Source: Eledone cirrhosa (lineage: Eukaryota). From it: a stretch of DNA of 64,000 nucleotides. The notes beneath the pieces were generated by a model, which ran no database searches, was not told where the DNA came from, and worked only from the letters and a program-made list of their open reading frames with translations. Each line of letters opens with the position of its first letter. The first letter of the stretch is position 1. Below are positions 1 to 64,000 of this stretch, in pieces. The DNA lies in NCBI GenBank assembly GCA_964016885.1, contig OZ024743.1:139252001-139316000 (forward strand), written 5' to 3'. The translations under genes and the position numbers were made by a program.

Positions 1-3000
1 TGCTTGGGGTTTGGTGTTTGGGGCTTGGTGTTTGGTGCTTTGTGCTTGCTGTTTGGTGTTTGGTGTTTGGTTCTTGGTGCTTGGTGTTTGGTGTTTGGTG
101 TTTGGTGCTTGGTGCTTGGTGCTTGGTGCTTGGTGCTTGGTGCTTGGTGTTTGGTGCTTGGTGCCTGGTGCTTGTTGTTTGGTGTTTGGTGCTTAGTGCT
201 TGGTGTTTGGTGTTTGGTGCTTGGTGCTTGGTGGCTGGTGTTTGGTGCTTGGTGTTTGGAGTTTGGTGCTTGGTGCTTGGTGCCTGGTGTTTCGTGCTTG
301 GTGCTTGGTGCTTGGTGTTTGGTGTTTGGTGCTTGGTGTTTGGTGTTTGGTACTTGGTGCTTGGTGTTTGGTGCTTGGTGTTTGATGCTGCGTGCTTGGT
401 GTTTGGTGTTTGGTGCTTGGTGCTTGGTGTTTGGTGTTTGGAGCTTGGTGCCTGGTGCTTGTTGCTTGGTGTTTGGCGTTTGGTGCTTGGTTCCTGGTGT
501 TTCGTGCTTGGTGCTTGGTGCTTGGTGTTTGGTGTTTGGTGCTTGGTGTTTGGTGTTTGGTACTTGGTGCTTGGTGCTTGGTGCTTGGTGTTTGGTGCTT
601 GGTGTTTGATGCTGCGTGCTTGGTGTTTGGTGTTTGGTGCTTGGTGCTTGGTGTTTGGTGTTTGGAGCTTGGTGCCTGGTGCTTGTTGCTTGGTGTTTGG
701 CGCTTGGTGCTTGGTGTTTGGTGTTTGGTGCTTGGTGCTTGGTGCTTGGTATCTGGTGTTTGGTGCTTGATGTTTGGTGTTTGGTGCTTGGTGTTTGGTG
801 TTTGGTGCTTGGTGCTTGGTGTTTGGTACTTGGTGCTTGGTGTTTTGTGTTTGGTGCTTGGTGCTTGGTGCCTGGTGCTTGGTGCTTGGTGCTTGTTGTT
901 TGGTGCTTGGTGCTTGGTGATTAGTGTTTGGTGCTTGGTGCTTGCGGTTTGGTGTTTGGTGCTTGGGGTTTGGTGCTTGGTGCTTGGTGCTTGGTGTTTG
1001 GTGCTTGGTGCTTGGTGTTTGGTGCTTGGTGCCTGGTGTTTGGTGTTTGGCGTTTGCTGTTTGCTGTTTGGTGTTTGGTGCTTGCTGTTTGGTGCTTGGT
1101 GCATGGTGTTTGGTGTTTGGTGTTTTGTGCTTGGTGCTTGGTGTTTGGTGCTTGGTGCTTGGTGCTGGGTGTTTGGTGCTTGGTGCTTGGTGTTTGGTGC
1201 TTGGTGCTTGGTGCTTGGCGTTTGGTCCTTGGTGCTTGGTGCTTGGTATTTGGTGGTTGGGTTTTGGTGTTTGGTGCTTGGTGCTTGGTGTTTGGTGCTT
1301 GGTCTTGGTGCTTGGTGCTTGGTGTTTGGTGATTGCTGCTTGGTGCTTGGTGTTTGGTACTTGGTGCTTGGTGATTAGTGTTTGGTGATTGGTGCTTGGG
1401 GTTTGCTGTTTGGTGCTTGGTGTTTGGTGCTTGGTGCTTGCTGTTAGGTGTTTGGTGTTTGGTTCTTGGTGCTTGGTGTTTGGTGTTTGGTGTCTGGTGC
1501 TTGGTGCTTGGTGCTTGGTGTTTGGTGCTTGGTGCTTGGTGCTTGGTGTTTGGTGCTGCGTGCTTGGTGTTTGGTGTTTGGTGCTTGGTGCCTGGTGCTT
1601 GTTGTTTGGTGTTTGGTGCTTAGTGCTTGGTGTTTGGTGTTTGGTGCTTGGTGCTTGTTGTTTGGTGCTTGGTGCTTGGTGCCTGGTGTTTCGTGCTTGG
1701 TGCTTGGTGCTTGGTGTTTGGTGTTTGGGGATTGGTGTTTGGTGTTTGGTGCTGGGTGCATGGAGTTTGGTGCTTGGTGCTTAGTGCTTGGTGTTTTGTG
1801 TTTGGTGCTTGGTATTTGATGCTTGGTGTGTGGTGCTTGGTGCTTGGTGTTTTGTGTTTGGTGCTTGGTGCTTGGTGCCTGGTGCTTGGTGCTTGGTGCT
1901 TGTTGTTTGGTGCTTGGTGCTTGATGATTAGTGTTTGGTGCTTGGTGCTTGGTGTTTGGTGCTTGGTGTTTGGTGCTTGGTGCCTGGTGCTTGGTGTTTG
2001 GTGTTTGGTGCTTGGTGTTTGGTGCTTGGTGTTTGGTACTTGGTGTTCGGTGCTTGGTGCTTGGTGCTTGGTGTTTGATGTTTGGTCCGTGGTGCTTGGT
2101 GTTTGGTGTTGTGTGCTTGGTGCTTGGTGCTTGCTGTTTGGTTTTTGGTGCTTGGTGTTTGGTGTTTGCTGTTTGGTGTTTGCTGTTTGGTGTTTGGTGT
2201 TTGGTGCTGGCTGTTTGGTGCTTGGTGCTTGGTATTTGGTGTTTGGTGCTTGGTGTTTGGTGCTTGGTGCTTGGTGCTGGGTGTTTGGTGCTTGGTGCTT
2301 GGTGTTTGGTGCTTGGTGCTTGGTGCTTGGTGCTTGGTGTTTGGTGCTTGGTGCTTGGTCTTTGGTGCTTGGGTTTTGGTGTTTGGGGCTTGGTGTTTGG
2401 TGCTTAGTGCTTGCTGTTTGGTGTTTGGTATTTGGTTCTTGGTGCTTGGTGTTTGGTGTTTGGTGTTTGGTGGTTGGTGCTTGGTGCTTGGTGTTTGGTG
2501 CTTGGTGCTTGGTGCTTGGTGTTTGGTGCTGCGTGCTTGGTGTTTGGTGTTTGGTGCTTGGTGCCTGGTGCTTGTTGTTTGGTGTTTCGTGCTTAGTGCT
2601 TGGTGTTTGGTGTTTGGTGCTTGGTGCTTGGTGGCTGGTGTTTGGTGCTTGGTGTTTGGAGTTTGGTGCTTGGTGCTTGGTGCCTGGTGTTTCGTGCTTG
2701 GTGCTTGGTGCTTGGTGTTTGGTGTTTGCTGCTTGGTGTTTGGTGTTTGGTACTTGGTGCTTGGTGCTTGGTGCTTGGTGTTTGGTGCTTGGTGTTTGAT
2801 GCTGCGTGCTTGGTGTTTGGTGTTTGGTGCTTGGTGCTTGGTGTTTGGTGTTTGGAGCTTGGTGCCTGGTGCTTGTTGTTTGGTGTTTGGCTCTTGGTGC
2901 TTGGTGTTTGGTGTTTGGTGCTTTGTGCTTGGTGCTTGGTATCTGGTGTTTGGTGCTTGATGTTTGGTGTTTGGTGTTTGGTGCTTGGTGCTTGGTGTTT

Positions 3001-4440
3001 GGTGCTTGGTGTTTGGTGTTTGGTGTTTGATGCTTGGTGTTTGCTGCTTGGTGCTTGGTGCTTGGTGTTTTGTGTTTGGTGCTTGGTGCTTGGTGCTTGG
3101 TGCCTGGTGCTTGGTGCTTGGTGCTTGTTGTTTGGTGCTTGGTGCTTGGTGATAAGTGTTTGGTGCTTGGTGCTTGCGGTTTGGTGTTTGGTGCTTGGGG
3201 TTTGGTGTTTGGTGCTTGGTGCTTGGTGTTTGGTGCTTGGTGCTTGGTGCTTGGTGTTTGGTGCTTGGTGCTTGGTGTTTGGTGCTTGGTGCTTGGTGTT
3301 TGGTGTTTGGCGTTTGCTGTTTGCTGTTTGGTGTTTGGTGCTTGCTGTTTGGTGCTTGGTGCTTGGTGTTTGGTGTTTGGTGTTTGGTGCTTGGTGCTTG
3401 GTGTTTGGTGCTTGGTGCTTGGTGCTGGGTGTTTGGTGCTTGGTGCTTGGTGTTTGGTGCTTGGTGCTTGGTGCTTGGTGTTTGGTCCTTGGTGCTTGGT
3501 GTTTGGTGCTTGGTTCTTGGTGCTTGGTGCGTGGTGTTTGGTGATTGCTGCTTGGTGCATGGTGTTTGGTGCTTGGTGCTTGGTGATTAGTGTTTGGTGA
3601 TTGGTGCTTGGTGTTTGGTGTTTGGTGCTTTGTGCTTGGTGCTTGGTATCAGGTGTTTGGTGCTTGATGTTTGGTGTTTGGTGCTTGGTGCTTGGTGTTT
3701 GGTGCTTGGTGCTTGCTGTTTGGTGTTTGGTGTTTGGTTCTTGGTGCTTGGTGTTTGGTGTTTGGTGTCTGGTGCTTGGTGCTTGGTGCTTGGTGTTTGG
3801 TGCTTGGTGCTTGGTGCTTGGTGTTTGGTGCTGCGTGCTTGGTGTTTGGTGTTTGGTGCTTGGTGCCTGGTGCTTGTTGTTTGGTGTTTGGTGCTTAGTG
3901 CTTGGTGTTTGGTGTTTGGTGCTTGGTGCTTGGTGGCTGGTGCTTGGTGCTTGGTGTTTGGAGTTTGGTGCTTGGTGCTTGGTGCCTGGTGTTTCGTGCT
4001 TGGTGCTTGGTGCTTGGTGTTTGGTGTTTGGTGCTTGGTGTTTGGTGTTTGGTACTTGGTGCTTGGTGCTTGGTGCTTGGTGTTTGGTGCTTGGTGTTTG
4101 ATGCTGCGTGCTTGGTGTTTGGTGTTTGGTGCTTGGTGCTTGGTGTTTGGTGTTTGGAGCTTGGTTCCTGCTGCTTGTTGTTTGGTGTTTGGTGCTTGGT
4201 GCTTGGTGTTTGGTGTTTGGTGCTTGGTGCTTGGTGCTTGGTATCTGGTGTTTGGTGCTTGATGTTTGGTGTTTGGTGCTTGGTGCTTGGTGCTTGGTGT
4301 TTGGTGTTTGGTGCTTGGTGCTTGGTGTTTGGTGCTTGGTGTTTGGTGTTTGGTGTTTGATGCTTGGTGTTTGCTGCTTGGTGCTTGGTGCTTGGTGTTT
4401 TGTGTTTGGTGCATGGTGCCTGGTGCCTGGTGCTTGGTGC
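1..4440 (+). repeat. Left, more mosaic satellite segment with internal repeats at offsets 2,400 and 1,302 bp
   Basis: The block TTAGTGC...TTGGTGG CTGGTG...TTGGAGT...TTCGTGC recurs near 193, 2593 and 3895 (ORF starts 200, 2600, 3902). It shares TGGTGGCTGG and TTGGCGT-TTGCTGT-TTGCTGT markers with the 26-48 kb domain. Confidence 0.7.
893..948 (+). other. Recurrent conserved box centred on TTGGTGA-TTAGTGT (first of ~95-100 copies)
   Basis: GGTGATTAGTGT recurs from ~914 to ~63516. Many + strand ORFs end at this site (...LGD*). Flanking units are also conserved. Confidence 0.85.
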
Positions 4441-7126
4441 TTGGTGATTTTGTTTGGTGCTTGGTGCTTGCGATTTGATGTTTGGTGCTTGGGGTTTGGT
4501 GTTTGGTGCTTGGTGCTTGGTGTTTGGTGCTTGGTGCTTGGTGCTTGGTGTTTGGTGCTTGGTGCTTGGTGTTAGGTGTTTGGTGCTTGGTGCTTGGTGT
4601 TTGGTGCTTGGTGATTGGTGCTTGGTGTTTTGTGCTTGGTGCTTGGTGTTTGGTGTTTGGTGCTAGGGGCTTGGTGCTTGGTGCTTGGTGTTTAGTGCCT
4701 GGTGCTTGCTGTTTGGTGTTTGGTGCTTGGTGCGTGGGACATAGTATTTGGTGTTTGGTGCTTGGTGTTTGGTGATTGGTGTTTGGTGCTTGGTGTTTGG
4801 GGCTTGGTGTTCGGTGCTTGGTGTTTTGTGCTTGGGGCTTGGTGTTTGGTGTTTGGTGCTTGGTGCTTGGTGTTTGATCTTGGGTCCTTGGTGCTTGGTC
4901 TTTGGTGTTTGGTGCTTGGTGCTTGGTGTTTGGTGCTTGGTGCTTGGTGTTTGGTGTTTGGTGCTTGGTGCTTGGGGCTTGGTGTTTGGTGCTTGGTGCT
5001 TGGTGTTTGGTGCTTGGTGCTTGGGGCTTGGTAGTTGGTGCTTGGTGCTTGGTGCCTGGTGTTTGGTGTTTGGTGTTTGGTGCTTGGTGTTTGGTGATTG
5101 GTGCTTGGTGCTGGGTGGTTGGTGTTTGGTGCTTGATGCTTGGTGTTTGGTGCTTGGTGCTTGGTGCTTGTTGTTTGGTGCTTGGTGCTTGGTGCTTGGT
5201 CTTTGGTGCATGGTGTTTGGTGTTTGGCGCTTGGTGCTTGGTGCTTGGTGTTTGGTGCTTGGTGCTTGGTGCTTGGTGTTTGGTGCTTGGTTCTTGGTGA
5301 TTAGTGTTTGTTGCTTGGTGCTTGGTGTTTGGTGTTTGGTGTTTGCTGTTTGGTGTCTGCTTTTTGGTGTTTGGTGTTTGCTGTATGGTGTTTGCTGTTT
5401 CGTATTTGGTTTTTGCTGTTTGGTGTTTGGTGTTTGCTGTTTTGTGTTTGGTGTTTGGTGCTTGGTGCTTGGTGCTTGGTGTTTGGCGTTTGGTGCTTGG
5501 AGCTTGGTGTTTGGTGCTTGGTGCTTGGTGTTTGGTGTTTGGTGCTTGGTGCCTGGTGCTTGTTGTATGGTGTTTGGTGCTTGGTGCTTGGTGTTTGGTG
5601 TTTGCTGCTTGGTGTCTGGTGTTTGGTGCTTGGTGCTTGGTGCTTGGTGTTTGGTGTTTGGTGCTTGGTGCTTGGTGTTTGGTGTTTGGTGCTGGGTGCA
5701 TGGAGTTTGGTGCTTGGTGCTTAGTGCTTGGTGTTTGGTGTTTGGTGCTTGGTATTTGGTGTTTGGTGTTTGATGCTTGGTGTGTGGTGCTTGGTGATTG
5801 GTGTTTTGTGTTTGGTGCTTGGTGCTTGGTGCCTGGTGCTTGGTGCTTGGTGCTTGTTGTTTGGTGCTTGGTGCTTGGTGATTAGTGTTTGGTGCTTGGT
5901 CCTTGGGGTTTGCTGTTTGGTGCGTGGAGCTTGGTATTTGGTGCTTGGTGCTTGGTGTTTGGTGTTTGGTGCTTGGGGTTTGGTGTTTGGTGCTTGGTGC
6001 TTGGTGTTTGGTGCTTGGTGCTTGGTGTTTGGTGCTTGGTGCTTTGTGTTTGGTGCTTGGTGTTTGGTGCTTGGTGCTTGGTGCTTGGTGCTTGGTGTTA
6101 GGTGTTTGGTGCTTGGTGATTGGTGTTTGATGTTAGGTTCTTGGTGCTTGGTGTTTGGTGTTTGGTGCTTGGTACTTGGTGTTTGGTGTTTGGTGGTTGC
6201 TGCTTGGTGCTTTTTTTTTGTGTTTGGAGTTTGGTGCTTGGTGTTTGGTGCTTCGGTCTTGGTGTTTGGTGTTTGGTGATTGCTGCTTGTTGCTTGGTGT
6301 TTGGTGCTTGGTGCTTGGTGATTAGTGTTTGGTGATTAGTGCTTGGGGTTTGCTGTTTGGTGCTTGGTGTTTGGTGCTTGGTGCTTGCTGTTTGGTGTTT
6401 GGTGTTTGGTTCTTGGTGCTTGGTGCTTGGTGTTTGGTGCTTGGTGCTTGGTGCTTGGTGCTTGGTGTTTGGTGCTTGGTGTTTGATGCTGCGTGCCTGG
6501 TGTTTGGTGTTTGGTGCTTGGTGCTTGGTGCTTGGTGTTTGGTGTTTGGAGCTTGATTCCTGCTGCTTGTTGTTTGGTGTTTGGTGCTTGGTGCTTGGTG
6601 TTTGGTGTTTGGTGCTTGGTGCTTGGTGCTTGGTATCTGGTGTTTGGTGCTTGGTCTTTGGTGTTTGGTGCTTGGTGCTTGGTGTTTGGTGCTTGGTGTT
6701 TGGTGTTTGGTCTTTGATGCTTGGTGTTTGCTGCTTGGTGCTTGGTGCTTGGTGTTTTGTGTTTGGTGCTTGGTGCCTGGTGCCTGGTGCTTGGTGCTTG
6801 GTGCTTGTTGTTTGGTGCTTGGTGCTTGGTGATTAGTGTTTGGTGCTTGGTGCTTGCGGTTTGATGTTTGGTGCTTGGGGTTTGGTGTTTGGTGCTTGGT
6901 GCTTGGTGTTTGGTGCTTGGTGCTTGGTGCTTGGTGTTTGGTGCTTGGTGCTTGGTGTTAGGTGTTTGGTGCTTGGTGCTTGGTGTTTGATGTTTGGTCC
7001 TTGGTGCTTGGTGTTTGGTGTTTGGTGCTTGGTGCTTGGTGTTTGGTGTTTGGTGCTTGCTGCTTGCTGCTTGGTGTTTGGTGCTTGGTGATTGGTGCTT
7101 GGTGTTTTGTGCTTGGTGCTTGGTGC

Positions 7127-7434
7127 TTGGTATCTGGTGTTTGGTGCTTGGTGTTTGGTGTTTGGTGCTTGGTGCTTGGTGTTTGGTGCTTGGTGTTTGG
7201 TGTTTGGTGTTTGATGCTTGGTGTTTGCTGCTTGGTGCTTGGTGCTTGGTGTTTTGTGTTTGGTGCTTGGTGCTTGGTGCTTGGTATCTGGTGTTTGGTG
7301 CTTGGTGTTTGGTGTTTGGTGCTTGGTGCTTGGTGTTTGGTGCTTGGTGTTTGGTGTTTGGTGTTTGATGCTTGGTGTTTGCTGCTTGGTGCTTGGTGCT
7401 TGTTGTCTTGTGTTTGGTGCTTGGTGCCTGGTGC
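7127..7434 (+). repeat. 154-bp (22-heptamer) tandem doublet starting TTGGTAT-CTGGTGT; representative copy
   Basis: Marker pairs at 7127/7281, 9639/9793, 16246/16400, 22203/22357, 51597/51751 and 58737/58891. Confidence 0.8.
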
Positions 7435-8499
7435 CTGGTGCTTGGTGCTTGTTGTTTGGTGCTTGGTGCTTGGTGATTAGTGTTTGGTGCTTGGTGCTTG
7501 CGGTTTGATGTTTGGTGCTTGGGGTTTGGTGTTTGGTGCTTGGTGTTTGGTGTTTGGTGCTTGCTGCTTGCTGCTTGGTGTTTGGTGCTTGGTGATTGGT
7601 GCTTGGTGTTTTGTGCTTGGTGCTTGGTGTTTGGTGTTTGGTGCTAGGGGCTTGGTGATTGGTGCTTGGTGTTTGGTGCCTGGTGCTTGCTGTTTGGTTT
7701 TTGGTGCTTGGTGCGTGGGACATAGTGTTTGGTGTTTGGTGCTTGGTGTTTGGTGATTGGTGTTTGGTGCTTGGTGTTTGGGGCTTGGTGTTCGGTGCTT
7801 GGTGCTTGGTGCTTGGGGCTTGGTGATTGGTGTTTGGTGCTTGGTGCTTGGTGTTTGATCTTGGGTCCTTGGTGCTTGGTCTTTGGTGTTTGGTGCTTGG
7901 TGCTTGGTGTTTGGTGCTTGGTGCTTGGTGTTTGGTGTTTGGTGCTTGGTGCTTGGGGCTTGGTGTTTGGTGCTTGGTGCTTGGTGTTTGGTGCTTGGTG
8001 CTTGGGGCTTGGTAGTTGGTGCTTGGTGCTTGGTGCCTGGTGTTTGGTGTTTGGAGTTTGGTGCTTGGTGTTTGGTGCTTGGTGCTTGGTGTTTGGTGTT
8101 TGCTGCTTGGTGTCTGGTGTTTGGTGCTTGGTGTTTGGTGCTTGGTGCTTGGTGCTTGGTGCTTGGTGTTTGGTGTTTGGTGCTTGGTGCTTGGTGTTTG
8201 GTGTTTGGTGCTGGGTGCATGGAGTTTGGTGCTTGGTGCTTAGTGCTTGGTGTTTGGTGTTTGGTGCTTGGTATTTGGTGTTTGGTGTTTGATGCTTGGT
8301 GTGTGGTGCTTGGTGATTGGTGTTTTGTGTTTGGTGCTTGGTGCTTGGTGCCTGGTGCTTGGTGCTTGGTGCTTGTTGTTTGGTGCTTGGTGCTTGGTGA
8401 TTAGTGTTTGGTGCTTGGTCCTTGGGGTTTGCTGTTTGGTGCGTGGAGCTTGGTATTTGGTGCTTGGTGCTTGGTGTTTGGTGTTTGGTGCTTGGGGTT

Positions 8500-11400
8500 T
8501 GGTGTTTGGTGCTTGGTGCTTGGTGTTTGGTGCTTGGTGCTTGGTGTTTGGTGCTTGGTGCTTTGTGTTTGGTGCTTGGTGTTTGGTGCTTGGTGCTTGG
8601 TGCTTGGTGCTTGGTGTTAGGTGTTTGGTGCTTGGTGATTGGTGTTTGATGTTAGGTTCTTGGTGCTTGGTGTTTGGTGTTTGGTGCTTGGTACTTGGTG
8701 TTTGGTGTTTGGTGGTTGCTGCTTGGTGCTTTTTTTTTGTGTTTGGAGTTTGGTGCTTGGTGTTTGGTGCTTCGGTCTTGGTGTTTGGTGTTTGGTGATT
8801 GCTGCTTGTTGCTTGGTGTTTGGTGCTTGGTGCTTGGTGATTAGTGTTTGGTGATTGGTGCTTGGGGTTTGCTGTTTGGTGCTTGGTGTTTGGTGCTTGG
8901 TGCTTGCTGTTTGGTGTTTGGTGTTTGGTTCTTGGTGCTTGGTGCTTGGTGTTTGGTGCTTGGTGCTTGGTGCTTGGTGCTTGGTGTTTGGTGCTTGGTG
9001 TTTGATGCTGCGTGCTTGGTGTTTGGTGTTTGGTGCTTGGTGCTTGGTGTTTGGTGTTTGGAGCTTGATTCCTGCTGCTTGTTGTTTGGTGTTTGGTGCT
9101 TGGTGCTTGGTGTTTGGTGTTTGGTGCTTGGTGCTTGGTGCTTGGTATCTGGTGTTTGGTGCTTGGTCTTTGGTGTTTGGTGCTTGGTGCTTGGTGTTTG
9201 GTGCTTGGTGTTTGGTGTTTGGTCTTTGATGCTTGGTGTTTGCTGCTTGGTGCTTGGTGCTTGGTGTTTTGTGTTTGGTGCTTGGTGCCTGGTGCCTGGT
9301 GCTTGGTGCTTGGTGCTTGTTGTTTGGTGCTTGGTGCTTGGTGATTAGTGTTTGGTGCTTGGTGCTTGCAGTTTGATGTTTGGTGCTTGGGGTTTGGTGT
9401 TTGGTGCTTGGTGCTTGGTGTTTGGTGCTTGGTGCTTGGTGCTTGGTGTTTGGTGCTTGGTGCTTGGTGTTAGGTGTTTGGTGCTTGGTGCTTGGTGTTT
9501 GATGTTTGGTCCTTGGTGCTTGGTGTTTGGTGTTTGGTGCTTGGTGCTTGGTGTTTGGTGTTTGGTGCTTGCTGCTTGCTGCTTGGTGTTTGGTGCTTGG
9601 TGATTGGTGCTTGGTGTTTTGTGCTTGGTGCTTGGTGCTTGGTATCTGGTGTTTGGTGCTTGGTGTTTGGTGTTTGGTGCTTGGTGCTTGGTGTTTGGTG
9701 CTTGGTGTTTGGTGTTAGGTGTTTGATGCTTGGTGTTTGCTGCTTGGTGCTTGGTGCTTGGTGTTTTGTGTTTGGTGCTTGGTGCTTGGTGCTTGGTATC
9801 TGGTGTTTGGTGCTTGGTGTTTGGTGTTTGGTGCTTGGTGCTTGGTGTTTGGTGCTTGGTGTTTGGTGTTTGGTGTTTGATGCTTGGTGTTTGCTGCTTG
9901 GTGCTTGGTGCTTGTTGTCTTGTGTTTGGTGCTTGGTGCCTGGTGCCTGGTGCTTGGTGCTTGGTGCTTGTTGTTTGGTGCTTGCTGCTTGGTGATTAGT
10001 GTTTGGTGCTTGGTGCTTGCGGTTTGATGTTTGGTGCTTGGGGTTTGGTGTTTGGTGCTTGGTGTTTGGTGTTTGGTGCTTGCTGCTTGCTGCTTGGTGT
10101 TTGGTGCTTGGTGATTGGTGCTTGGTGTTTTGTGCTTGGTGCTTGGTGTTTGGTGTTTGGTGCTAGGGGCTTGGTGATTGGTGCTTGGTGTTTGGTGCCT
10201 GGTGCTTGCTGTTTGGTTTTTGGTGCTTGGTGCGTGGGACATAGTGTTTGGTGTTTGGTGCTTGGTGTTTGGTGATTGGTGTTTGGTGCTTGGTGTTTGG
10301 GGCTTGGTGTTCGGTGCTTGGTGCTTGGTGCTTGGGGCTTGGTGTTTGGTGTTTGGTGCTTGGTGCTTGGTGTTTGATCTTGGGTCCTTGGTGCTTGGTC
10401 TTTGGTGTTTGGTGCTTGGTGCTTGGTGTTTGGTGCTTGGTGCTTGGTGTTTGGTGTTTGGTGCTTGGTGCTTGGGGCTTGGTGTTTGGTGCTTGGTGCT
10501 TGGTGTTTGGTGCTTGGTGCTTGGGGCTTGGTAGTTGGTGCTTGGTGCTTGGTGCCTGGTGTTTGGTGTTTGGAGTTTGGTGCTTGGTGTTTGGTGCTTG
10601 GTGCTTGGTGCTGGGTGGTTGGTGTTTGGTGCTTGGTGCTTGGTGTTTGGTGCTTGGTGCTTGGTGCTTGTTGTTTGGTGCTTGGTGCTTGGTGCTTGGT
10701 CTTTGGTGCATGGTGTTTGGTGTTTGGCGCTTGGTGCTTGGTGCTTGGTGTTTGGTGCTTGGTGCTTGGTGCTTGGTGTTTGGTGCTTGGTTCTTGGTGA
10801 TTAGTGTTTGTTGCTTGGTGCTTGGGGTTTGGTGGTTGGTCCTTGGTGCTTGGTGTTTGGTGTTTGGTGTTTGGTGTTTGGTGTTTGCTGTTTGGTGTCT
10901 GCTTTTTGGTGTTTGGTGTTTGCTGTATGGTGTTTGCTGTTTCGTATTTGGTTTTTGCTGTTTGGTGTTTGGTGTTTGCTGTTTTGTGTTTGGTGTTTGG
11001 TGCTTGGTGCTTGGTGCTTGGTGTTTGGCGTTTGGTGCTTGGAGCTTGGTGTTTGGTGCTTGGTGCTTGGTGTTTGGTGTTTGGTGCTTGGTGCCTGGTG
11101 CTTGTTGTATGGTGTTTGGTGCTTGGTGCTTGGTGTTTGGTGTTTGCTGCTTGGTGTCTGGTGTTTGGTGCTTGGTGTTTGGTGCTTGGTGCTTGGTGCT
11201 TGGTGCTTGGTGTTTGGTGTTTGGTGCTTGGTGCTTGGTGTTTGGTGTTTGGTGCTGGGTGCATGGAGTTTGGTGCTTGGTGCTTAGTGCTTGGTGTTTG
11301 GTGTTTGGTGCTTGGTATTTGGTGTTTGGTGTTTGATGCTTGGTGTGTGGTGCTTGGTGATTGGTGTTTTGTGTTTGGTGCTTGGTGCTGGGTGCCTGGT

Positions 11401-48300: not shown

Positions 48301-48670
48301 TGGTGTTTGGTGCCTGGTGCTTGTTGTTTGGTGTTTGGTGTTTGGTGCTTAGTGCTTGGTGTTTGGTGTTTGGTCCTTGGTGCTTGGTGGCTGGTGTTTG
48401 GTGCTTGGTGTTTGGAGTTTGGTGCTTGGTGCTTGGTGCCTGGTGTTTCGTGCTTGGTGCTTGGTGCTTGGTGTTTGGTGTTTGGTGCTTGGTGTTTGGT
48501 GTTTGGTGCTCGGTACTTGGTGCTTGGTGCTTGGTGCTTGGTGTTTGGTGCTTGGTGTTTGATGCTGCGTGCTTGGTGTTTGGTGTTTGGTGCTTGGTGC
48601 TTGGTGTTTGGTGTTTGGAGCTTGGTGCCTGGTGCTTGTTGTTTGGTGTTTGGCGCTTGGTGCTTGGTGT

Positions 48671-54600: not shown

Positions 54601-57600
54601 TGGTGCTTGCTGCTTGCTGCTTGGTGTTTGGTGCTTGGTGATTGGTGCTTGGTGTTTTGTGCTTGGTGCTTGGTGTTTGGTGTTTGGTGCTAGGGGCTTG
54701 GTGCTTGGTGCTTGGTGTTTGGTGCCTGGTGCTTGCTGTTTGGTTTTTGGTGCTTGGTGCGTGGGACATAGTGTTTGGTGTTTGGTGCTTGGTGTTTGGT
54801 GATTGGTGTTTGGTGATTGGTGTTTGGGGCTTGGTGTTCGGTGCTTGGTGCTTGGTGCTTGGGGCTTGGTGTTTGGTGTTTGCTGCTTGGTGCTTGGTGT
54901 TTGATCTTGGGTCCTTGGTGCTTGGTCTTTGGTGTTTGGTGCTTGGTGCTTGGTGTTTGGTGCTTGGTGCTTGGTGTTTGGTGTTTGGTGCTTGGTGCTT
55001 GGGGCTTGGTGTTTGGTGCTTGGTGCTTGGTGTTTGGTGCTTGGTGCTTGGGGCTTGGTAGTTGGTGCTTGGTGCTTGGTGCCTGGTGTTTGGTGTTTGG
55101 AGTTTGGTGCTTGGTGTTTGGTGCTTGGTGCTTGGTGCTGGGTGGTTGGTGTTTGGTGCTTGGTGCTTGGTGTTTGGTGCTTGGTGCTTGGTGCTTGTTG
55201 TTTGGTGCTTGGTGCTTGGTGCTTGGTCTTTGGTGCATGGTGTTTGGTGTTTGGCGCTTGGTGCTTGGTGCTTGGTGTTTGGTGCTTGGTGCTTGGTGCT
55301 TGGTGTTTGGTGCTTGGTTCTTGGTGATTAGTGTTTGTTGCTTGGTGCTTGGTGTTTGGTGTTTGGTGTTTGGTGTTTGCTGTTTGGTGTCTGCTTTTTG
55401 GTGTTTGGTGTTTGCTGTATGGTGTTTGCTGTTTCGTATTTGGTTTTTGCTGTTTGGTGTTTGGTGTTTGCTGTTTTGTGTTTGGTGTTTGGTGCTTGGT
55501 GCTTGGTGCTTGGTGTTTGGCGTTTGGTGCTTGGAGCTTGGTGTTTGGTGCTTGGTGCTTGGTGTTTGGTGTTTGGTGCTTGGTGCCTGGTGCTTGTTGT
55601 ATGGTGTTTGGTGCTTGGTGCTTGGTGTTTGGTGTTTGCTGCTTGGTGTCTGGTGTTTGGTGCTTGGTGTTTGTTGCTTGGTGCTTGGTGCTTGGTGCTT
55701 GGTGTTTGGTGTTTGGTGCTTGGTGCTTGGTGTTTGGTGTTTGGTGCTGGGTGCATGGAGTTTGGTGCTTGGTGCTTAGTGCTTGGTGTTTGGTGTTTGG
55801 TGCTTGGTATTTGGTGTTTGGTGCTTGATGTTTGGTGTTTGGTGCTTGGTGCTTGGTATCTGGTGTTTGGTGCTTGATGTTTGGTGTTTGGTGCTTGGTG
55901 TTTGGTGTTTGGTGCTTGGTGCTTGGTGTTTGGTGCTTGGTGTTTGGTGTTTGGTGTTTGATGCTTGGTGTTTGCTGCTTGGTGCTTGGTGCTTTGTGTT
56001 TTGTGTTTGGTGCTTGGTGCTTGGTGCCTGGTGCTTGGTGCTTGGTGCTTGTTGTCAGGTGCTTGGTGCTTGGTGATTAGTGTTTGGTGCTTGGTGCTTG
56101 CGGTATGGTGTTAGGTGCTTGGGGTTTGGTGTTTGGTGCTTGGTGCTTGGTGTTTGGTGCTTGGTGCTTGGTGCTTGGTGTTTGGTGCTTGGTGCTTGGT
56201 GTTTGGTGTTTGGTGCTTGGTGTTTGGTGTTTGGCGTTTGCTGTTTGCTGTTTGCTGTTTGGTGTTTGCTGTTTGGTGTTTGCTGTTTGGTGTTTGGTGT
56301 TTGGTGCTTGCTGTTTGGTGCTTGGTGCTTGGTGTTTGGTGTTTGGTGCTTGGTGCTTGGTGCTGGGTGTTTGGTGCTTGGTGCTTGGTGTTTGGTGCTT
56401 GGTGCTTGGTGCTTGGTGCTTGGTGTTTGGTGCTTGGTGCTTGGTCTTTGGTGCTTGGGTTTTGGTGTTTGGTGCTTGGTGCTTGGTGTTTGGTGCTTGG
56501 TTCTTGGTGCTTGGTGCTTGGTGTTTGGTGATTGCTGCTTGGTGCTTGGTGTTTGGTGCTTGGTGCTTGGTGATTAGTGTTTGGTGATTGGTGCTTGGGG
56601 TTTGCTGTTTGGTGCTTGGTGTTTGGTGCTTGGTGCTTGCTGTTTGGTGTTTGGTGTTTGGTTCCTGGTGCTTGGTTTTTGGTGTTTGGTGTTTGGTGCT
56701 TGGTGCTTGGTGCTTGGTGTTTGGTGCTTGGTGCTTGGTGCTTGCTCTTTGGTGCTGCGTGCTTGGTGTTTGGTGTTTGGTGCTTGGTGCCTGGTGCTTG
56801 TTGTTTGGTGTTTGGTGCTTAGTGCTTGGTGTTTGGAGTTTGGTGCTGGGTGCTTGGTGCCTGGTGTTTCATGCTTGGTGCTTGGTGCTTGGTGTTTGGT
56901 GTTTGGTGCTTGGTGTTTGGTGTTTGGTATTTGGTGCTTGGTGCTTGGTGCTTGGTGTTTGGTGCTTGGTGTTTGATGCTGCGTGCTTGGTGTTTGGTGT
57001 TTGGTGCTTGGTGCTTGGTGTTTGGTGTTTGGAGCTTGGTGCCTGCTGCTTGTTGTTTGGTGTTTGGTGCTTGCTGCTTGGTGTTTGGTGTTTGGTGCTT
57101 GGTGCTTGGTGCTTGGTATCTGGTGTTTGGTGCTTGATGTTTGGTGTTTGGTGCTTGGTGCTTGGTGTTTGGTGCTTGGTGTTTGGTGTTTGGTGTTTGA
57201 TGCTTGGTGTTTGCTGCTTGGTGCTTGGTGCTTGGTGTTTTGTGTTTGGTGCTTGGTGCTTGGTGCCTGGTGCTTGGTGCTTGGTGCTTGATGTTTGGTG
57301 CTTGGTGCTTGGTGATTAGTGTTTGGTGCTTGGTGCTTGGTGTTTGGTGCTTGGTGCTTGGGGCTTGGTATTTGGTGCTTGGTGCTTGGTGCCTGGTGTT
57401 TGGTGTTTGGTGTTTGGTGCTTGGTCTTTGGTGCTTGGTGCTTGGTGCTGGGTGGTTGGTGTTTGGTGCTTGGTGCTTGGTGTTTGGTGCTTGGTGCTTG
57501 GTGCTTGTTGTTTGGTGCTTGGTGCTTGGTGCTTGGTCTTTGGTGCATGGTGTTTGGTGTTTGGTGCTTTGTGCTTGGTGCTTGGTGTTTGGTGCTTGGT

Positions 57601-60600
57601 GCTTGGTGCTTGGTGTTTGGTGCTTGGTGCTTGGTGATTAGTGTTTGTTGCTTGGTGCTTGGGGTTTGGTGGTTGGTGCTTGGTGCTTGGTGTTTGGTGT
57701 TTTGTGTTTGGTGTTTGCTGTTTGCTGTTTGGTGTCTGCTTTTTGGTGTTTAGTGTTTGCTGTATGGTGTTTGCTGTTTCGTATTTGGTTTTTGCTGTTT
57801 GGTGTTTGGTGTTTGCTGTTTGGTGTTTGGTGTTTGGTGTTTGGTGCTTGGTGCTTGGTGCTTGGTGTTTGGTGCTTGGTGCTTGGTGTTTGGTGTTTGG
57901 TGCCTGGTGCTTGTTGTATGGTGTTTGGTGCTTGGTGCTTGGTGTTTGCTGTTTGCTGCTTGGTGTCTGGTGTTTGGTGCTTGGTGTTTGGTGTTTGGTG
58001 CTTGGTGATTAGTGTTTCGTGATTGGTGCTTGGGGTTTGGTGTTTGGGGCTTGGTGTTTGGTGCTTGGTGCTTGCTGTTTGGTGTTTGGTGTTTGGTGCT
58101 TGGTGTTTGGTGTTTGGTGTTTGGTGCTTGGTGCTTGGTGCTTGGTGTTTGGTGCTTGGTGCTTGGTGCTTGGTGTTTGGTGCTTGGTGCTTGGGGCTTG
58201 GTAGTTGGTGCTTGGTGCTTGGTGCCTGGTGTTTGGTGTTTGGTGTTTGGTGCTTGGTGTTTGGTGCTTGGTGCTTGGTGCTGGGTGGTTGGTGTTTGGT
58301 GCTTGGTGCTTGGTGTTTGGTGCTTGGTGCTTGGTGCTTGTTGTTTGGTGCTTGGTGCTTGGTGCTTGGTCTTTGGTGCATGGTGTTTGGTGTTTGGCGC
58401 TTGGTGCTTGGTGCTTGGTGTTTGGTGCTTGGTGCTTGGTGCTTGGTGTTTGGTGCTTGGTTCTTGGTGATTAGTGTTTGTTGCTTGGTGCTTGGTGTTT
58501 GGTGTTTGGTGTTTGCTGTTTGGTGTCTGCTTTTTGGTGTTTGGTGTTTGCTGTATGGTGTTTGCTGTTTCGTATTTGGTTTTTGCTGTTTGGTGTTTGG
58601 TGTTTGGTGTTTGCTGTTTTGTGTTTGGTGTTTGGTGCTTGGTGCTTGGTGCTTGGTGTTTGGCGTTTGGTGCTTGGAGCTTGGTGTTTGGTGCTTGGTG
58701 CTTGGTGTTTGGTGTTTTGTGCTTGGTGCTTGGTGCTTGGTATCTGGTGTTTGGTGCTTGGTGTTTGGTGTTTGGTGCTTGGTGCTTGGTGTTTGGTGCT
58801 TGGTGTTTGGTGTTTGGTGTTTGATGCTTGGTGTTTGCTGCTTGGTGCTTGGTGCTTGGTGTTTTGTGTTTGGTGCTTGGTGCTTGGTGCTTGGTATCTG
58901 GTGTTTGGTGCTTGGTGTTTGGTGTTTGGTGCTTGGTGCTTGGTGTTTGGTGCTTGGTGTTTGGTGTTTGGTGTTTGATGCTTGGTGTTTGCTGCTTGGT
59001 GCTTGGTGCTTGGTGTTTTGTGTTTGGTGCTTGGTGCCTGGTGCCTGGTGCTTGGTGCTTGGTGCTTGTTGTTTGGTGCTTGGTGCTTGGTGATTAGTGT
59101 TTGGTGCTTGGTGCTTGCGGTTTGATGTTTGGTGCTTGGGGTTTGGTGTTTGGTGCTTGGTGCTTGGTGTTTGGTGCTTGGTGCTTGGTGCTTGGTGTTT
59201 GGTGCTTGGTGCTTGGTGTTAGGTGTTTGGTGCTTGGTGCTTGGTGTTTGATGTTTGGTCCTTGGTGCTTGGTGTTTGGTGTTTGGTGCTTGGTGCTTGG
59301 TGTTTGGTGTTTGGTGCTTGCTGCTTGCTGCTTGGTGTTTGGTGCTTGGTGATTGGTGCTTGGTGTTTTGTGCTTGGTGCTTGGTGTTTGGTGTTTGGTG
59401 CTAGGGGCTTGGTGATTGGTGCTTGGTGTTTGGTGCCTGGTGCTTGCTGTTTGGTTTTTGGTGCTTGGTGCGTGGGACATAGTGTTTGGTGTTTGGTGCT
59501 TGGTGTTTGGTGATTGGTGTTTGGTGCTTGGTGTTTGGGGCTTGGTGTTCGGTGCTTGGTGCTTGGTGCTTGGGGCTTGGTGTTTGGTGTTTGGTGCTTG
59601 GTGCTTGGTGTTTGATCTTGGGTCCTTGGTGCTTGGTCTTTGGTGTTTGGTGCTTGGTGCTTGGTGTTTGGTGCTTGGTGCTTGGTGTTTGGTGTTTGGT
59701 GCTTGGTGCTTGGGGCTTGGTGTTTGGTGCTTGGTGCTTGGTGTTTGGTGCTTGGTGCTTGGGGCTTGGTAGTTGGTGCTTGGTGCTTGGTGCCTGGTGT
59801 TTGGTGTTTGGAGTTTGGTGCTTGGTGTTTGGTGCTTGGTGCTTGGTGCTGGGTGGTTGGTGTTTGGTGCTTGGTGCTTGGTGTTTGGTGCTTGGTGCTT
59901 GGTGCTTGTTGTTTGGTGCTTGGTGCTTGGTGCTTGGTGCTTGGTGCTTGGTGTTTGGTGTTTGGCGCTTGGTGCTTGGTGCTTGGTGTTTGGTGCTTGG
60001 TGCTTGGTGCTTGGTGTTTGGTGCTTGGTTCTTGGTGATTAGTGTTTGTTGCTTGGTGCTTGGGGTTTGGTGGTTGGTCCTTGGTGCTTGGTGTTTGGTG
60101 TTTGGTGTTTGGTGTTTGGTGTTTGCTGTTTGGTGTCTGCTTTTTGGTGTTTGGTGTTTGCTGTATGGTGTTTGCTGTTTCGTATTTGGTTTTTGCTGTT
60201 TGGTGTTTGGTGTTTGCTGTTTTGTGTTTGGTGTTTGGTGCTTGGTGCTTGGTGCTTGGTGTTTGGCGTTTGGTGCTTGGAGCTTGGTGTTTGGTGCTTG
60301 GTGCTTGGTGTTTGGTGTTTGGTGATTGGTGCCTGGTGCTTGTTGTATGGTGTTTGGTGCTTGGTGCTTGGTGTTTGGTGTTTGCTGCTTGGTGTCTGGT
60401 GTTTGGTGCTTGGTGTTTGGTGCTTGGTGCTTGGTGCTTGGTGTTTGGTGTTTGGTGCTTGGTGCTTGGTGTTTGGTGTTTGGTGCTGGGTGCATGGAGT
60501 TTGGTGCTTGGTGCTTAGTGCTTGGTGTTTGGTGTTTGGTGCTTGGTATTTGGTGTTTGGTGTTTGATGCTTGGTGTGTGGTGCTTGGTGATTGGTGCTT

Positions 60601-62943
60601 TGTGTTTGGTGCTTGGTGCTTGGTGCCTGGTGCTTGGTGCTTGGTGCTTGTTGTTTGGTGCTTGGTGCTTGGTGATTAGTGTTTGGTGCTTGGTCCTTGG
60701 AGTTTGCTGTTTGGTGCGTGGAGCTTGGTATTTGGTGCTTGGTGCTTGGTGTTTGGTGTTTGGTGCTTGGGGTTTGGTGTTTGGTGCTTGGTGCTTGGTG
60801 TTTGGTGCTTGGTGCTTGGTGTTTGGTGCTTGGTGCTTTGTGTTTGGTGCTTGGTGTTTGGTGCTTGGTGCTTGGTGCTTGGTGCTTGGTGTTAGGTGTT
60901 TGGTGCTTGGTGATTGGTGTTTGATGTTAGGTTCTTGGTGCTTGGTGTTTGGTGTTTGGTGCTTGGTACTTGGTGTTTGGTGTTTGGTGGTTGCTGCTTG
61001 GTGCTTGGTGTTTTGTGTTTGGTGCTTGGTACTTGGTGTTTGGTGTTTGGTGATTGCTGCTTGTTGCTTGGTGTTTGGTGCTTGGTGCTTGGTGATTAGT
61101 GTTTGGTGATTGGTGCTTGGGGTTTGCTGTTTGGTGCTTGGTGTTTGGTGCTTGGTGCTTGCTGTTTGGTGTTTGGTGTTTGGTTCTTGGTGCTTGGTGT
61201 TTGGTGTTTGGTGTCTGGTGCTTGAGGCTTGGTGCTTGGTGTTTGGTGCTTGGTGCTTGGTGCTTGGTGCTTGGTGTTTGGTGCTTGGTGTTTGATGCTG
61301 CGTGCTTGGTGTTTGGTGTTTGGTGCTTGGTGCTTGGTGTTTGGTGTTTGGAGCTTGGTTCCTGCTGCTTGTTGTTTGGTGTTTGGTGTTTGGTGCTTGG
61401 TGTTTGGTGTTTGGTGCTTGGTGCTTGGTGCTTGGTGTTTTGTGTTTGGTGCTTGGTGCCTGGTGCCTGGTGCTTGGTGCTTGGTGCTTGTTGTTTGGTG
61501 CTTGGTGCTTGGTGATTAGTGTTTGGTGCTTGGTGCTTGCGGTTTGATGTTTGGTGCTTGGGGTTTGGTGTTTGGTGCTTGGTGCTTGGTGTTTGGTGCT
61601 TGGTGCTTGGTGCTTGGTGTTTGGTGCTTGGTGCTTGGTGTTAGGTGTTTGGTGCTTGGTGCTTGGTGTTTGATGTTTGGTCCTTGGTGCTTGGTGTTTG
61701 GTGTTTGGTGCTTGGTGCTTGGTGTTTGGTGTTTGGTGCTTGCTGCTTGCTGCTTGGTGTTTGGTGCTTGGTGATTGGTGCTTGGTGTTTTGTGCTTGGT
61801 GCTTGGTGTTTGGTGTTTGGTGCTAGGGGCTTGGTGCTTGGTGCTTGGTGTTTGGTGCCTGGTGCTTGCTGTTTGGTTTTTGGTGCTTGGTGCGTGGGAC
61901 ATAGTGTTTGGTGTTTGGTGCTTGGTGTTTGGTGATTGGTGTTTGGTGATTGGTGTTTGGGGCTTGGTGTTCGGTGCTTGGTGCTTGGTGCTTGGGGCTT
62001 GGTGTTTGGTGTTTGCTGCTTGGTGCTTGGTGTTTGATCTTGGGTCCTTGGTGCTTGGTCTTTGGTGTTTGGTGCTTGGTGCTTGGTGTTTGGTGCTTGG
62101 TGCTTGGTGTTTGGTGTTTGGTGCTTGGTGCTTGGGGCTTGGTGTTTGGTGCTTGGTGCTTGGTGTTTGGTGCTTGGTGCTTGGGGCTTGGTAGTTGGTG
62201 CTTGGTGCTTGGTGCCTGGTGTTTGGTGTTTGGAGTTTGGTGCTTGGTGTTTGGTGCTTGGTGCTTGGTGCTGGGTGGTTGGTGTTTGGTGCTTGGTGCT
62301 TGGTGTTTGGTGCTTGGTGCTTGGTGCTTGTTGTTTGGTGCTTGGTGCTTGGTGCTTGGTCTTTGGTGCATGGTGTTTGGTGTTTGGCGCTTGGTGCTTG
62401 GTGCTTGGTGTTTGGTGCTTGGTGCTTGGTGCTTGGTGTTTGGTGCTTGGTTCTTGGTGATTAGTGTTTGTTGCTTGGTGCTTGGTGTTTGGTGTTTGGT
62501 GTTTGGTGTTTGCTGTTTGGTGTCTGCTTTTTGGTGTTTGGTGTTTGCTGTATGGTGTTTGCTGTTTCGTATTTGGTTTTTGCTGTTTGGTGTTTGGTGT
62601 TTGCTGTTTTGTGTTTGGTGTTTGGTGCTTGGTGCTTGGTGCTTGGTGTTTGGCGTTTGGTGCTTGGAGCTTGGTGTTTGGTGCTTGGTGCTTGGTGTTT
62701 GGTGTTTGGTGCTTGGTGCCTGGTGCTTGTTGTATGGTGTTTGGTGCTTGGTGCTTGGTGTTTGGTGTTTGCTGCTTGGTGTCTGGTGTTTGGTGCTTGG
62801 TGTTTGTTGCTTGGTGCTTGGTGCTTGGTGCTTGGTGTTTGGTGTTTGGTGCTTGGTGCTTGGTGTTTGGTGTTTGGTGCTGGGTGCATGGAGTTTGGTG
62901 CTTGGTGCTTAGTGCTTGGTGTTTGGTGTTTGGTGCTTGGTAT
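48671..62943 (+). repeat. Near-identical tandem duplication, period 7,140 bp (1,020 heptamers), 7,133 bp after loss of one unit near 60.4 kb
   Basis: Offsets are 7,140 (48940/56080, 49434/56574, 50883/58023, 52500/59640), then 7,133 (53389/60522, 54690/61823). The junction is at about 55811. Confidence 0.93.
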
Positions 62944-64000
62944 TTGGTGTTTGGTGTTTGATGCTTGGTGTGTGGTGCTTGGTGATTGGTGTTTTGTGTT
63001 TGGTGCTTGGTGCTTGGTGCCTGGTGCTTGGTGCTTGGTGCTTGTTGTTTGGTGCTTGGTGCTTGGTGATTAGTGTTTGGTGCTTGGTCCTTGGGGTTTG
63101 CTGTTTGGTGCGTGGAGCTTGGTATTTGGTGCTTGGTGCTTGGTGTTTGGTGTTTGGTGCTTGGGGTTTGGTGTTTGGTGCTTGGTGCTTGGTGTTTGGT
63201 GTTGGTGCTTGGTGTTTGGTGCTTGGTGCTTTGTGTTTGGTGCTTGGTGTTTGGTGCTTGGTGCTTGGTGCTTGGTGCTTGGTGTTAGGTGTTTGGTGCT
63301 TGGTGATTGGTGTTTGATGTTAGGTTCTTGGTGCTTGGTGTTTGGTGTTTGGTGCTTGGTACTTGGTGTTTGGTGTTTGGTGGTTGCTGCTTGGTGCTTG
63401 GTGTTTTGTGTTTGGAGTTTGGTGCTTGGTGTTTGGTGCTTCGGTCTTGGTGTTTGGTGGTTGGTGATTGCTGCTTGTTGCTTGGTGTTTGGTGCTTGGT
63501 GCTTGGTGATTAGTGTTTGGTGATTGGTGCTTGGGGTTTGCTGTTTGGTGCTTGGTGTTTGGTGCTTGGTGCTTGCTGTTTGGTGTTTGGTGTTTGGTTC
63601 TTGGTGCTTGGTGTTTGGTGTTTGGTGTCTGGTGCTTGGTGCTTGGTGCTTGGTGTTTGGTGCTTGGTGCTTGGTGCTTGGTGCTTGGTGCTTGGTGTTT
63701 GGTGCTTGGTGTTTGATGCTGCGTGCTTGGTGTTTGGTGTTTGGTGCTTGGTGCTTGGTGTTTGGTGTTTGGAGCTTGGTTCCTGCTGCTTGTTGTTTGG
63801 TGTTTGGTGCTTGGTGCTTGGTGTTTGGTGTTTGGTGCTTGGTGCTTGGTGCTTGGTATCTGGTGTTTGGTGCTTGGTGTTTGGTGTTTGGTGCTTGGTG
63901 CTTGGTGTTTGGTGCTTGGTGTTTGGTGTTTGGTGTTTGATGCTTGGTGTTTGCTGCTTGGTGCTTGGTGCTTGGTGTTTTGTGTTTGGGGCTTGGTGCC

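What the first reader, a model, noticed from the sequence alone, without database searches (positions are those of the whole stretch)
1..64000. A 'simple' 7-bp satellite that is really a multi-level higher-order repeat
Seen: one heptamer fills 64 kb, but the order of C/T units and rare variants is copied faithfully at many nested periods (154, 196, 455, 574, ~2,100-2,980, 3,520, 3,842, ~6,600, 7,140, ~12,350-12,765 bp). All are multiples of 7 apart from counted 1-bp deletions. Established: HOR organisation is typical of centromeric satellites such as primate alpha satellite (171-bp monomer). Heptamer satellites are known, for example the Drosophila virilis ACAAACT family, but are usually described as simple arrays. 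I do not recognise TTGGTGY as a named satellite. Inference: this is a candidate centromeric or heterochromatic array in which a microsatellite-sized unit is the alphabet for kb-scale monomers.
Basis: partly seen in the sequence, partly recalled or inferred. Interest (0 to 1): 0.75.

Follow-up and report, generated by a model that had tools for sequence, protein, structure and literature searches.

The report
Giant seven-base satellite built by duplications
This window is a slice of one 14.6-million-base block of a 7-letter repeat on a giant chromosome of what is probably an octopus; its nested spacings are real but differ between copies of the same region, so they likely record one-off duplications at every scale, as in human satellite 3, rather than a fixed centromere-type unit, and a centromere role is possible but untested.

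Summary
Observation confirmed; interpretation partly supported. The window is 9,144 TTGGTGY units (69% exact) with 12 one-base deletions. The listed periods exist, but each tandem one has about two copies, none holds over 8% of spacings, and 12,765 and 12,352 decompose into an ~8.9-kb duplication plus later 3,842 and 3,520-bp ones. The same variant 'dialect' recurs 2.7 Mb to either side at ~99.6% identity with none of the window's top 12 periods. So this is a heterogeneous, HSat3-like nested tandem repeat, not a fixed higher-order repeat. It belongs to one 14.60-Mb array (G000:C4:128.82-143.42 Mb), with no gap or insertion in 840 kb sampled. A 28-bp substructure runs through all dialects. A roughly megabase macro-unit with a 156-256-kb inverted block recurs about ten times. 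A 71-kb copy sits on C2; I found no other array, so it is not a pan-centromeric repeat. A 196-bp repeat shared by C1, C2 and C4 lies 69 Mb away. The scan had already noted this block and its eleven tail-to-tail joins from another window (e1-10312967). I found the unit in no searched paper. New member of a known kind; centromere role about 20%.

The parts
1..64000 (+). Uninterrupted TTGGTGY heptamer satellite, 9,144 units, dialect 'W'; slice G000:C4:139,252,001-139,316,000 of a 14.60-Mb array
5623..9960 (+). ~2.5-kb duplication (lags 2,519 and 2,512), 99.8% identical
9205..21537 (+). ~6.6-kb duplication (lags 6,607, 6,642, 6,579), 99.7% on the 6,607 diagonal; contains the 2,331, 2,366, 574 and 154-bp repeats
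13377..14545 (+). 574-bp tandem duplication, 2.04 copies
23092..48264 (+). Inferred ~8.9-kb duplication (diagonals at 8,923 and 8,832). Its apparent lags are 12,765 = 8,923 + 3,842 and 12,352 = 8,832 + 3,520
   Evidence: the arithmetic is mine
26291..33960 (+). 3,842-bp tandem duplication, 2.0 copies, 99.97%, inside the first copy of the 8.9-kb block; carries the 455-bp repeat
38356..45409 (+). 3,520-bp tandem duplication, 2.0 copies, 99.97%, inside the second copy of the 8.9-kb block
48671..62950 (+). 7,140/7,133-bp tandem duplication, two copies, 99.94-100%, differing by one heptamer
6204..6237 (+). One-base-deletion marker (copies at 8,723 and 15,316); found elsewhere only at C4 136.59, 136.61 and 141.91 Mb, where the W dialect recurs
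26809..26814 (+). One-base-deletion unit copied six times (also 30,651; 35,025; 39,574; 43,094; 47,377)

Best explanation
The window is part of a single 14.6-Mb satellite block of a 7-base unit whose nested periods are likely the scars of one-off duplications, probably made by unequal exchange or break-induced replication between misaligned heptamers, and the block is likely passive heterochromatin of the human HSat2/3 type rather than a regimented centromeric higher-order repeat. Shown: the unit, the two-copy duplications, the dialect domains, the copied inversion junctions, the array edges and the C2 copy. Inferred order: (1) an early four-unit (28-bp) pattern; (2) point mutations fixed in kb-scale blocks, giving local dialects; (3) a 156-256-kb segment inverted through 2-5-base self-complementary overlaps, probably by template switching; (4) a roughly megabase unit (Z ... 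W, V, X, junction 1, inverted Y, junction 2) copied about ten times, some copies flipped; (5) continuing 0.15-13-kb duplications and deletions, independent in each copy, which produce the window's periods. Any heptamer can pair with any other, so exchanges keep the 7-base frame without selection.
For: 11 of 11 tandem duplications have about two copies. The top period holds 4.8-7.9% of spacings and changes along the window. W-dialect copies at C4 136.59 and 141.90 Mb hold 64% and 58% of the window's 105-mers (up to 2,932 bp with 11 mismatches) but share 0 of its top 12 periods; the four X/Y regions hold 0.00. The order W then V is seen at 3 of 3 places examined; X flanks all 9 head-to-head junctions on the outside and Y on the inside. 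One head-to-head junction occurs 9 times. A tail-to-tail junction occurs at 11 array sites, 10 of them homologous. Copies differ by private substitutions and are broken by indels after 0.2-2.9 kb. 23 of 23 strand switches examined have no N; 114 loci (840,160 bases) have no N and no non-satellite stretch of 15 bases or more except at the two edges. A lag-4 peak appears in 9 of 9 regions, r 0.13-0.42. Precedent: HSat2/3 nested tandem repeats, over 200 inversion breakpoints in HSat3B5 and beta-satellite arrays, and iterative duplications up to 5 Mb in Yq12.
Against: No chromatin data, so 'passive' is not shown. The absence of insertions and the very young duplications also fit an active centromere: transposons are virtually absent from homogeneous human HOR arrays, and CENP-A overlaps zones of recent duplication. 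Two of the window's chunks are among the most recently duplicated of 17 28-kb chunks (0.47 and 0.32 covered by exact 1,680-bp repeats), though 136.62 Mb (0.51) and 134.44 Mb (0.46) match them. Only about 6% of the array was read, so the macro-unit is inferred from junctions and samples. The arrangement was not checked on raw long reads. The exchange mechanism is inferred from patterns.
Confidence: 0.68

Rival explanations
1. The array, built as described, is the working centromere of chromosome C4: a chromosome-specific centromeric satellite with a 7-base unit and heterogeneous higher-order blocks.
For: One huge interstitial block 34-38% along a 379-Mb chromosome, free of insertions in 840 kb, with duplications at 99.9-100% identity. 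A 71-kb copy lies inside a 25-bp satellite array on C2, in a region that also holds the 196-bp repeat. Heterogeneous HORs, sub-nucleosomal monomers and families segregated on different chromosomes all occur among candidate centromeres (10.64898/2026.09.17.752431 section 6). Drosophila virilis has 7-bp satellites at or near centromeres (10.1101/693077 passages).
Against: No array was found on chromosomes other than C4 and C2. C4 also carries a 196-bp satellite at 212.2 Mb that is shared with C1 and C2. The largest human arrays of this architecture are pericentromeric HSat2/3. Earlier unreviewed notes list several other single-locus megabase arrays of short units in this genome (not checked).
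Confidence: 0.2
2. The copied inversion junctions and macro-unit are kept by selection as structural elements, as proposed for Tribolium macro-dyad symmetries.
For: Nine and ten near-identical junction copies. An imperfect macro-palindrome centred at C4 134.467 Mb shares 53% of 84-mers between arms. PMC13081366 proposes a function for conserved inversion sites (passages).
Against: Junction copies carry private substitutions and flanking indels like ordinary array sequence, and one tail-to-tail copy is mutated next to the join. The arms of the two common junctions are different dialects, not mirror images. Three further switches have other junction sequences.
Confidence: 0.07
3. The nested duplications and macro-repeats are assembly artefacts (haplotype duplication or mis-joins in a simple repeat).
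For: Some duplicates are 99.97-100% identical. Raw long reads were not examined.
Against: No N at 23 of 23 switches. Nine to eleven copies differ by private substitutions and indels, more than two haplotypes could supply. Three public runs of one sample hold 62-73% of sampled words of window 26,291-33,960; this may be the source sample, and it shows words, not arrangement.
Confidence: 0.05

Closest known systems
Human HSat2/HSat3 nested tandem repeats, including DYZ1 on Yq12 (10.1101/2021.07.12.452052 and 10.1101/2022.12.01.518724; passages read)
   Same: A tiny ancestral unit diverged into kb-scale blocks; period varies along the array; arrays of 13-28 Mb; many inversion breakpoints; iterative megabase duplications later altered by smaller deletions and expansions.
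   Different: Unrelated sequence (TTGGTGY, not CATTC). The 7-base frame is almost intact (12 one-base deletions in 64 kb). No stable unit like the ~3.6-kb DYZ1. No transposon fragments in 840 kb sampled. Most sampled inversions are copies of one junction pair.
Heterogeneous (Arabidopsis-type) higher-order repeats in the Darwin Tree of Life centromere atlas (10.64898/2026.09.17.752431; abstract and section 6 read)
   Same: Paired blocks of similar monomers at irregular spacing without long-range periodicity.
   Different: Monomer is 7 bp against a mean of 140 bp; essentially one locus; no transposon invasion seen. The main text has no hit for octopus, cephalopod or Mollusca; its supplementary tables could not be seen.
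Drosophila virilis 7-bp satellites AAACTAC/AAACTAT/AAATTAC (10.1101/693077; passages read)
   Same: 7-bp unit, very large arrays, sister variants one base apart.
   Different: Those average 97.5-99% identity, variants lie in separate blocks, and the main one occurs on five chromosome pairs. Here C and T variants are interleaved, 31% of units carry other changes, and the array is at one locus.
Tribolium macro-dyad satellite arrays (PMC13081366; abstract and passages read)
   Same: Conserved inversion junctions repeated within satellite arrays.
   Different: There thousands of junctions, arms up to 75 kb, on all chromosomes. Here about ten copies around a 156-256-kb block whose flanks are not mirror images.
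Primate alpha-satellite HORs (described)
   Same: Variant order copied at high identity; transposon-poor; macro-repeats and large inversions occur.
   Different: No fixed n-mer repeated many times; unit 7 bp; not on every chromosome.

Membership tests
Regimented HOR (alpha-satellite type) | A fixed multi-monomer unit repeated many times at one period | tested here: not met
   11 of 11 tandem duplications have ~2 copies; top period under 8% of spacings; 0 of 12 top periods shared with two paralogous regions
Heterogeneous HOR (Arabidopsis type) | Paired blocks of contiguous similar monomers at irregular spacing | tested here: met
   354 diagonals of 50 units or more at 340 lags; median identity 99.4% for 118 diagonals of 100 units or more
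Nested tandem repeat, HSat2/3 architecture | kb-scale repeats derived from a short simple unit, with period varying locally | tested here: met
   definition
Nested tandem repeat, HSat2/3 architecture | Multi-megabase array with strand inversions and large iterative duplications | tested here: met
   14.60 Mb; 23 switches examined; junctions copied 9 and 10 times
HSat2/HSat3 sequence family | Derived from (CATTC)n | tested here: not met
   Unit is TTGGTGY; the window has 1,095 A in 64,000 bases
Simple satellite (D. virilis type) | Near-homogeneous unit, about 98% identity or more | tested here: not met
   6,277 of 9,132 seven-base units match TTGGTGY; 3,292 further mismatches, about 5% of bases
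Pan-centromeric satellite | One array on each chromosome | tested here: not met
   Rare-pattern hits all in the C4 array: 6 of 6, 49 of 49, 9 of 9, 11 of 12 sites, 6 of 6. Hit density implies 15.2 Mb in total against 14.67 Mb mapped. Small arrays on later contigs are not excluded.
Functional centromere | CENP-A occupancy or methylation dip | not testable with these tools
   No chromatin data
Functional centromere | Homogeneous, transposon-poor array with very recent duplications | tested here: met
   not specific to centromeres
Telomeric repeat | At a chromosome end, in one orientation | tested here: not met
   128.8-143.4 Mb of a 378.8-Mb sequence, both orientations

The most novel reading that the evidence does not exclude
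This block is the functional centromere of a giant, possibly fusion-derived octopod chromosome: a 14.6-Mb centromere written in a two-letter heptamer code, organised from 28 bp up to megabase macro-units, that has seeded a 71-kb outpost in the satellite cluster of another giant chromosome. It would be a first sequence-level cephalopod centromere as far as my searches reach, and would show centromere identity on a microsatellite-sized unit competing with a 196-bp repeat on the same chromosome.
Probability: 0.2. Interest if true: 0.72.

Novelty: new member of a known kind. Interest (0 to 1): 0.36.

Why it matters
The unit keeps its frame and carries many markers, so the array reads as text and duplication events can be ordered over five orders of magnitude (28 bp to about 1 Mb). 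About ten copies of one macro-unit act as replicate experiments in satellite turnover: same starting sequence, different later duplications. It shows that HSat3-like architecture arises convergently in a probable octopod, and it supplies FISH and CUT&Tag targets (7-bp, 25-bp and 196-bp repeats) for a group in which my searches found no centromere sequence described. The architecture itself is known, and the scan has met it several times in this genome.

Tried and rejected
Fixed HOR monomer: rejected. Strand flips as scaffold gaps: rejected for 23 of 23 examined; other flips implied by sampling (for example between 134.9 and 135.5, 136.65 and 137.0, 137.0 and 137.7, 140.0 and 140.4 Mb) were not located. 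Simple reciprocal inversion: not supported, since the native continuations of the arms at one junction do not match the arms at the other in the loci held; sampling is partial. Ordering macro-unit copies by junction flanks: mostly star-like, the four arm trees disagree, and only the 130.2-130.4 / 134.5-134.8 Mb pair is supported, in three of four arms. Two junction patterns returned nothing; one search missed real junctions because of variant units. Mapping the 25-bp and 196-bp repeats over all chromosomes failed because only the first 100 hits are listed or one hit came back. Coding: + frames have 226-231 stops, - frames 73-95 with an open stretch up to 1,326 codons; no evidence of a gene, expression untested. 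Marine metagenome, metatranscriptome and organism D-F runs hold 7-21% of the words; only one of them (organism D) was laid and it showed none of the flank SINE, so I draw nothing from them. A tRNA-like stretch at the left edge was not called by ARAGORN. A helicase-like peptide at the right edge resembles Helitron proteins only from memory; it has stops and was not scanned. Literature: no paper held two of five heptamer spellings plus 'satellite DNA', and none held any of four 20-base strings. Two octopus/centromere searches listed no paper on cephalopod satellites (9 and 25 rows seen). Dfam, Repbase and nt were not available, and bioRxiv supplements could not be seen.
Full report
What the window is. 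All 64 kb parse into 9,144 units of TTGGTGY: 3,693 with C, 2,584 with T, the rest among 93 variant types, with 12 one-base deletions and no insertions. The order of variants is copied far beyond chance: the longest exact run at one lag is 496 units, against 11-15 in 5 shuffles and 34-45 in 3 order-4 Markov simulations. 92% of units lie in an exact 20-unit repeat. All 354 diagonals of 50 units or more respect the 7-base frame once deletions are counted.

What the periods mean. They are not levels of a fixed hierarchy. Each of the 11 tandem duplications has 1.9-2.05 copies. The 354 diagonals use 340 lags. The top period holds under 8% of spacings and changes along the window. The two largest periods are composite: diagonals at 8,923 and 8,832 exist, and 8,923 + 3,842 = 12,765 while 8,832 + 3,520 = 12,352. 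I infer that an ~8.9-kb block was duplicated and each copy then gained its own tandem duplication. Merging homologous units leaves 828 classes, a vocabulary of roughly 6 kb; over-merging makes this approximate. It appears in 9 of 9 regions tested, including C2, and is likely the oldest layer.

The array. The window is G000:C4:139,252,001-139,316,000 in a 3.0-Gb genome. Sampling and edge-finding give one block from about 128,822,857 to 143,422,347, or 14.60 Mb, with abrupt edges against AT-rich, retroelement-rich DNA. In 114 loci totalling 840,160 bases, about 6% of the array and including the window, there is no N and no non-satellite stretch of 15 bases or more apart from the two edges. A five-unit pattern has 428,006 hits genome-wide; at 28.2 hits per kb (88 loci, SD 5.4) this implies 15.2 Mb. 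Rare patterns hit only this block: 6 of 6, 49 of 49, 9 of 9 and 6 of 6, and 11 of 12 sites, the twelfth being a short inverted repeat at C4 351.7 Mb. The one other array found is 71 kb on C2 (250,860,578-250,931,520), set into a 25-bp satellite through 3-5-base overlaps. One of its five sampled loci shares 36% of 84-mers with C4 139.5 Mb; the other four share at most 1-11% with any C4 sample. It is likely an ectopic copy. The assembly has four sequences of 379-443 Mb and others of 22-136 Mb among the 11 whose lengths I saw.

The megabase layer. About 30% of hits are on the minus strand. All 23 switches examined are gapless joins. One head-to-head junction recurs 9 times, at 130.209, 131.437, 133.037, 134.761 (reversed), 135.989, 137.734, 138.740, 140.594 and 141.034 Mb. 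Tail-to-tail junctions lie at 11 sites; 10 are homologous and the one at 131.693 is different. Together they bound an inverted block of 156-256 kb, with 0.44-1.85 Mb between head-to-head copies. Flanks mostly differ by about 1% or less and are broken by indels after 0.2-2.9 kb. The array is made of dialects that share almost no 84-105-mers, in a repeated order: Z after the tail-to-tail join, W then V at 3 of 3 places examined, X before and Y after the head-to-head join. The window's dialect W recurs at 136.59 and 141.90 Mb at about 99.6% identity but with periods of 11,388/11,073/16,140 and 3,285/4,080; none of the window's top 12 periods is in either list. This is the key test: the window's periods are younger than the macro-unit and private to this copy. 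The two common junctions are not reciprocal in the loci held, which favours template switching over a clean two-break inversion; this is inferred from partial sampling. I had mapped the junctions before consulting earlier notes; note e1-10312967 reports the same block and eleven joins.

Organism and age. The best named match of a retroelement ORF 1.6 Mb from the array is an Argonauta hians protein, 58% identical over 63% of the query; two closer matches are unnamed. A flank SINE looks octopod to me from memory only. Earlier notes also say octopus-type. Runs under two other organism codes (B and C, one study) hold 24% and 23% of the satellite words, against 5.6% of distinct words made of exact units only, and carry the flank SINE in 30,964 and 24,315 contigs. 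The heptamer may therefore predate the species. Against this, an organism D run holds 21% of the words and laid no SINE contig, so such shares do not prove homology.

Function. Nothing here measures chromatin. For a centromere: one huge interstitial block, no insertions, very young duplications. Two of the window's 28-kb chunks rank among the four most recently duplicated of 17, though two other places match them. Against: no array on most chromosomes, and C4 has a second candidate, a 196-bp repeat at 212.2 Mb also present on C1 and C2 (lead from e1-10313858). I put passive heterochromatin at 0.68, the C4 centromere at 0.20, selected junction structure at 0.07 and artefact at 0.05.

Comparison. 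It works like human HSat2/3, described as multi-kb nested tandem repeats from (CATTC)n with hyper-local periods and many inversions (10.1101/2021.07.12.452052, passages), and like Yq12, with iterative duplications up to 5 Mb (10.1101/2022.12.01.518724, passages). It is not a member of those sequence families. It meets the definition of heterogeneous HORs, which are reported as prevalent (10.64898/2026.09.17.752431, section 6), and fails that of regimented HORs. It differs from D. virilis heptamers in being far less homogeneous (10.1101/693077, passages). Copied inversion sites recall Tribolium (PMC13081366, passages). The unit was in no paper searched; repeat databases and bioRxiv supplements were not available.

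Verdict. A real, apparently undescribed 7-bp satellite with an unusually legible multi-scale duplication history, of a known architectural kind. Interest 0.36.

Noticed in passing
G000:C2:250.70-251.05 Mb (L020, L057, L058, L060, L120, L128); C1 251.19-252.10 and 279.2 Mb; C2 245.6 Mb: A 25-bp satellite with A-rich variant units on at least two giant chromosomes (7,690 hits of a 58-base pattern); it hosts the 71-kb heptamer insert.
   Followed up: partly
L133 (G000:C4:212.23 Mb); C1 279.98 Mb; C2 243.6-244.0 Mb: A 196-bp satellite on three giant chromosomes, near the 25-bp satellite on C1 and C2; a rival centromere candidate for C4.
   Followed up: partly
L152-L160 and contig lengths: Strongly bimodal karyotype: four sequences of 379-443 Mb and others of 22-136 Mb, which suggests fusions; the array may mark a fusion point or relic centromere (untested).
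   Followed up: no
L132 (G000:C4:about 134,466,870): A gapless head-to-head junction of another type at the centre of an imperfect macro-palindrome between two tail-to-tail joins; arms share 53% of 84-mers.
   Followed up: partly
L051:2350-2530 (right edge of the C4 array): The array ends against a short stretch whose translation resembles a Helitron helicase end (recalled; contains stops; not scanned).
   Followed up: partly
L121:660-760 (about 120 bases left of the C4 array): A tRNA-like stretch by eye, not called by ARAGORN.
   Followed up: partly
L025 (G000:C4:127.0 Mb): An unrelated 28-bp tandem repeat 1.8 Mb left of the array.
   Followed up: no
L035:3-4000 (G000:C4:145.0 Mb): Long open frames of a Tx1/L1-like retroelement with reverse-transcriptase relatives.
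   Followed up: partly
L065-L071 and L073-L080 (inverted Y dialect): Runs of 12-16 units with CpG-bearing variants; the rest of the array is very CpG-poor (250 CpG in the window), which could matter for methylation mapping.
   Followed up: no
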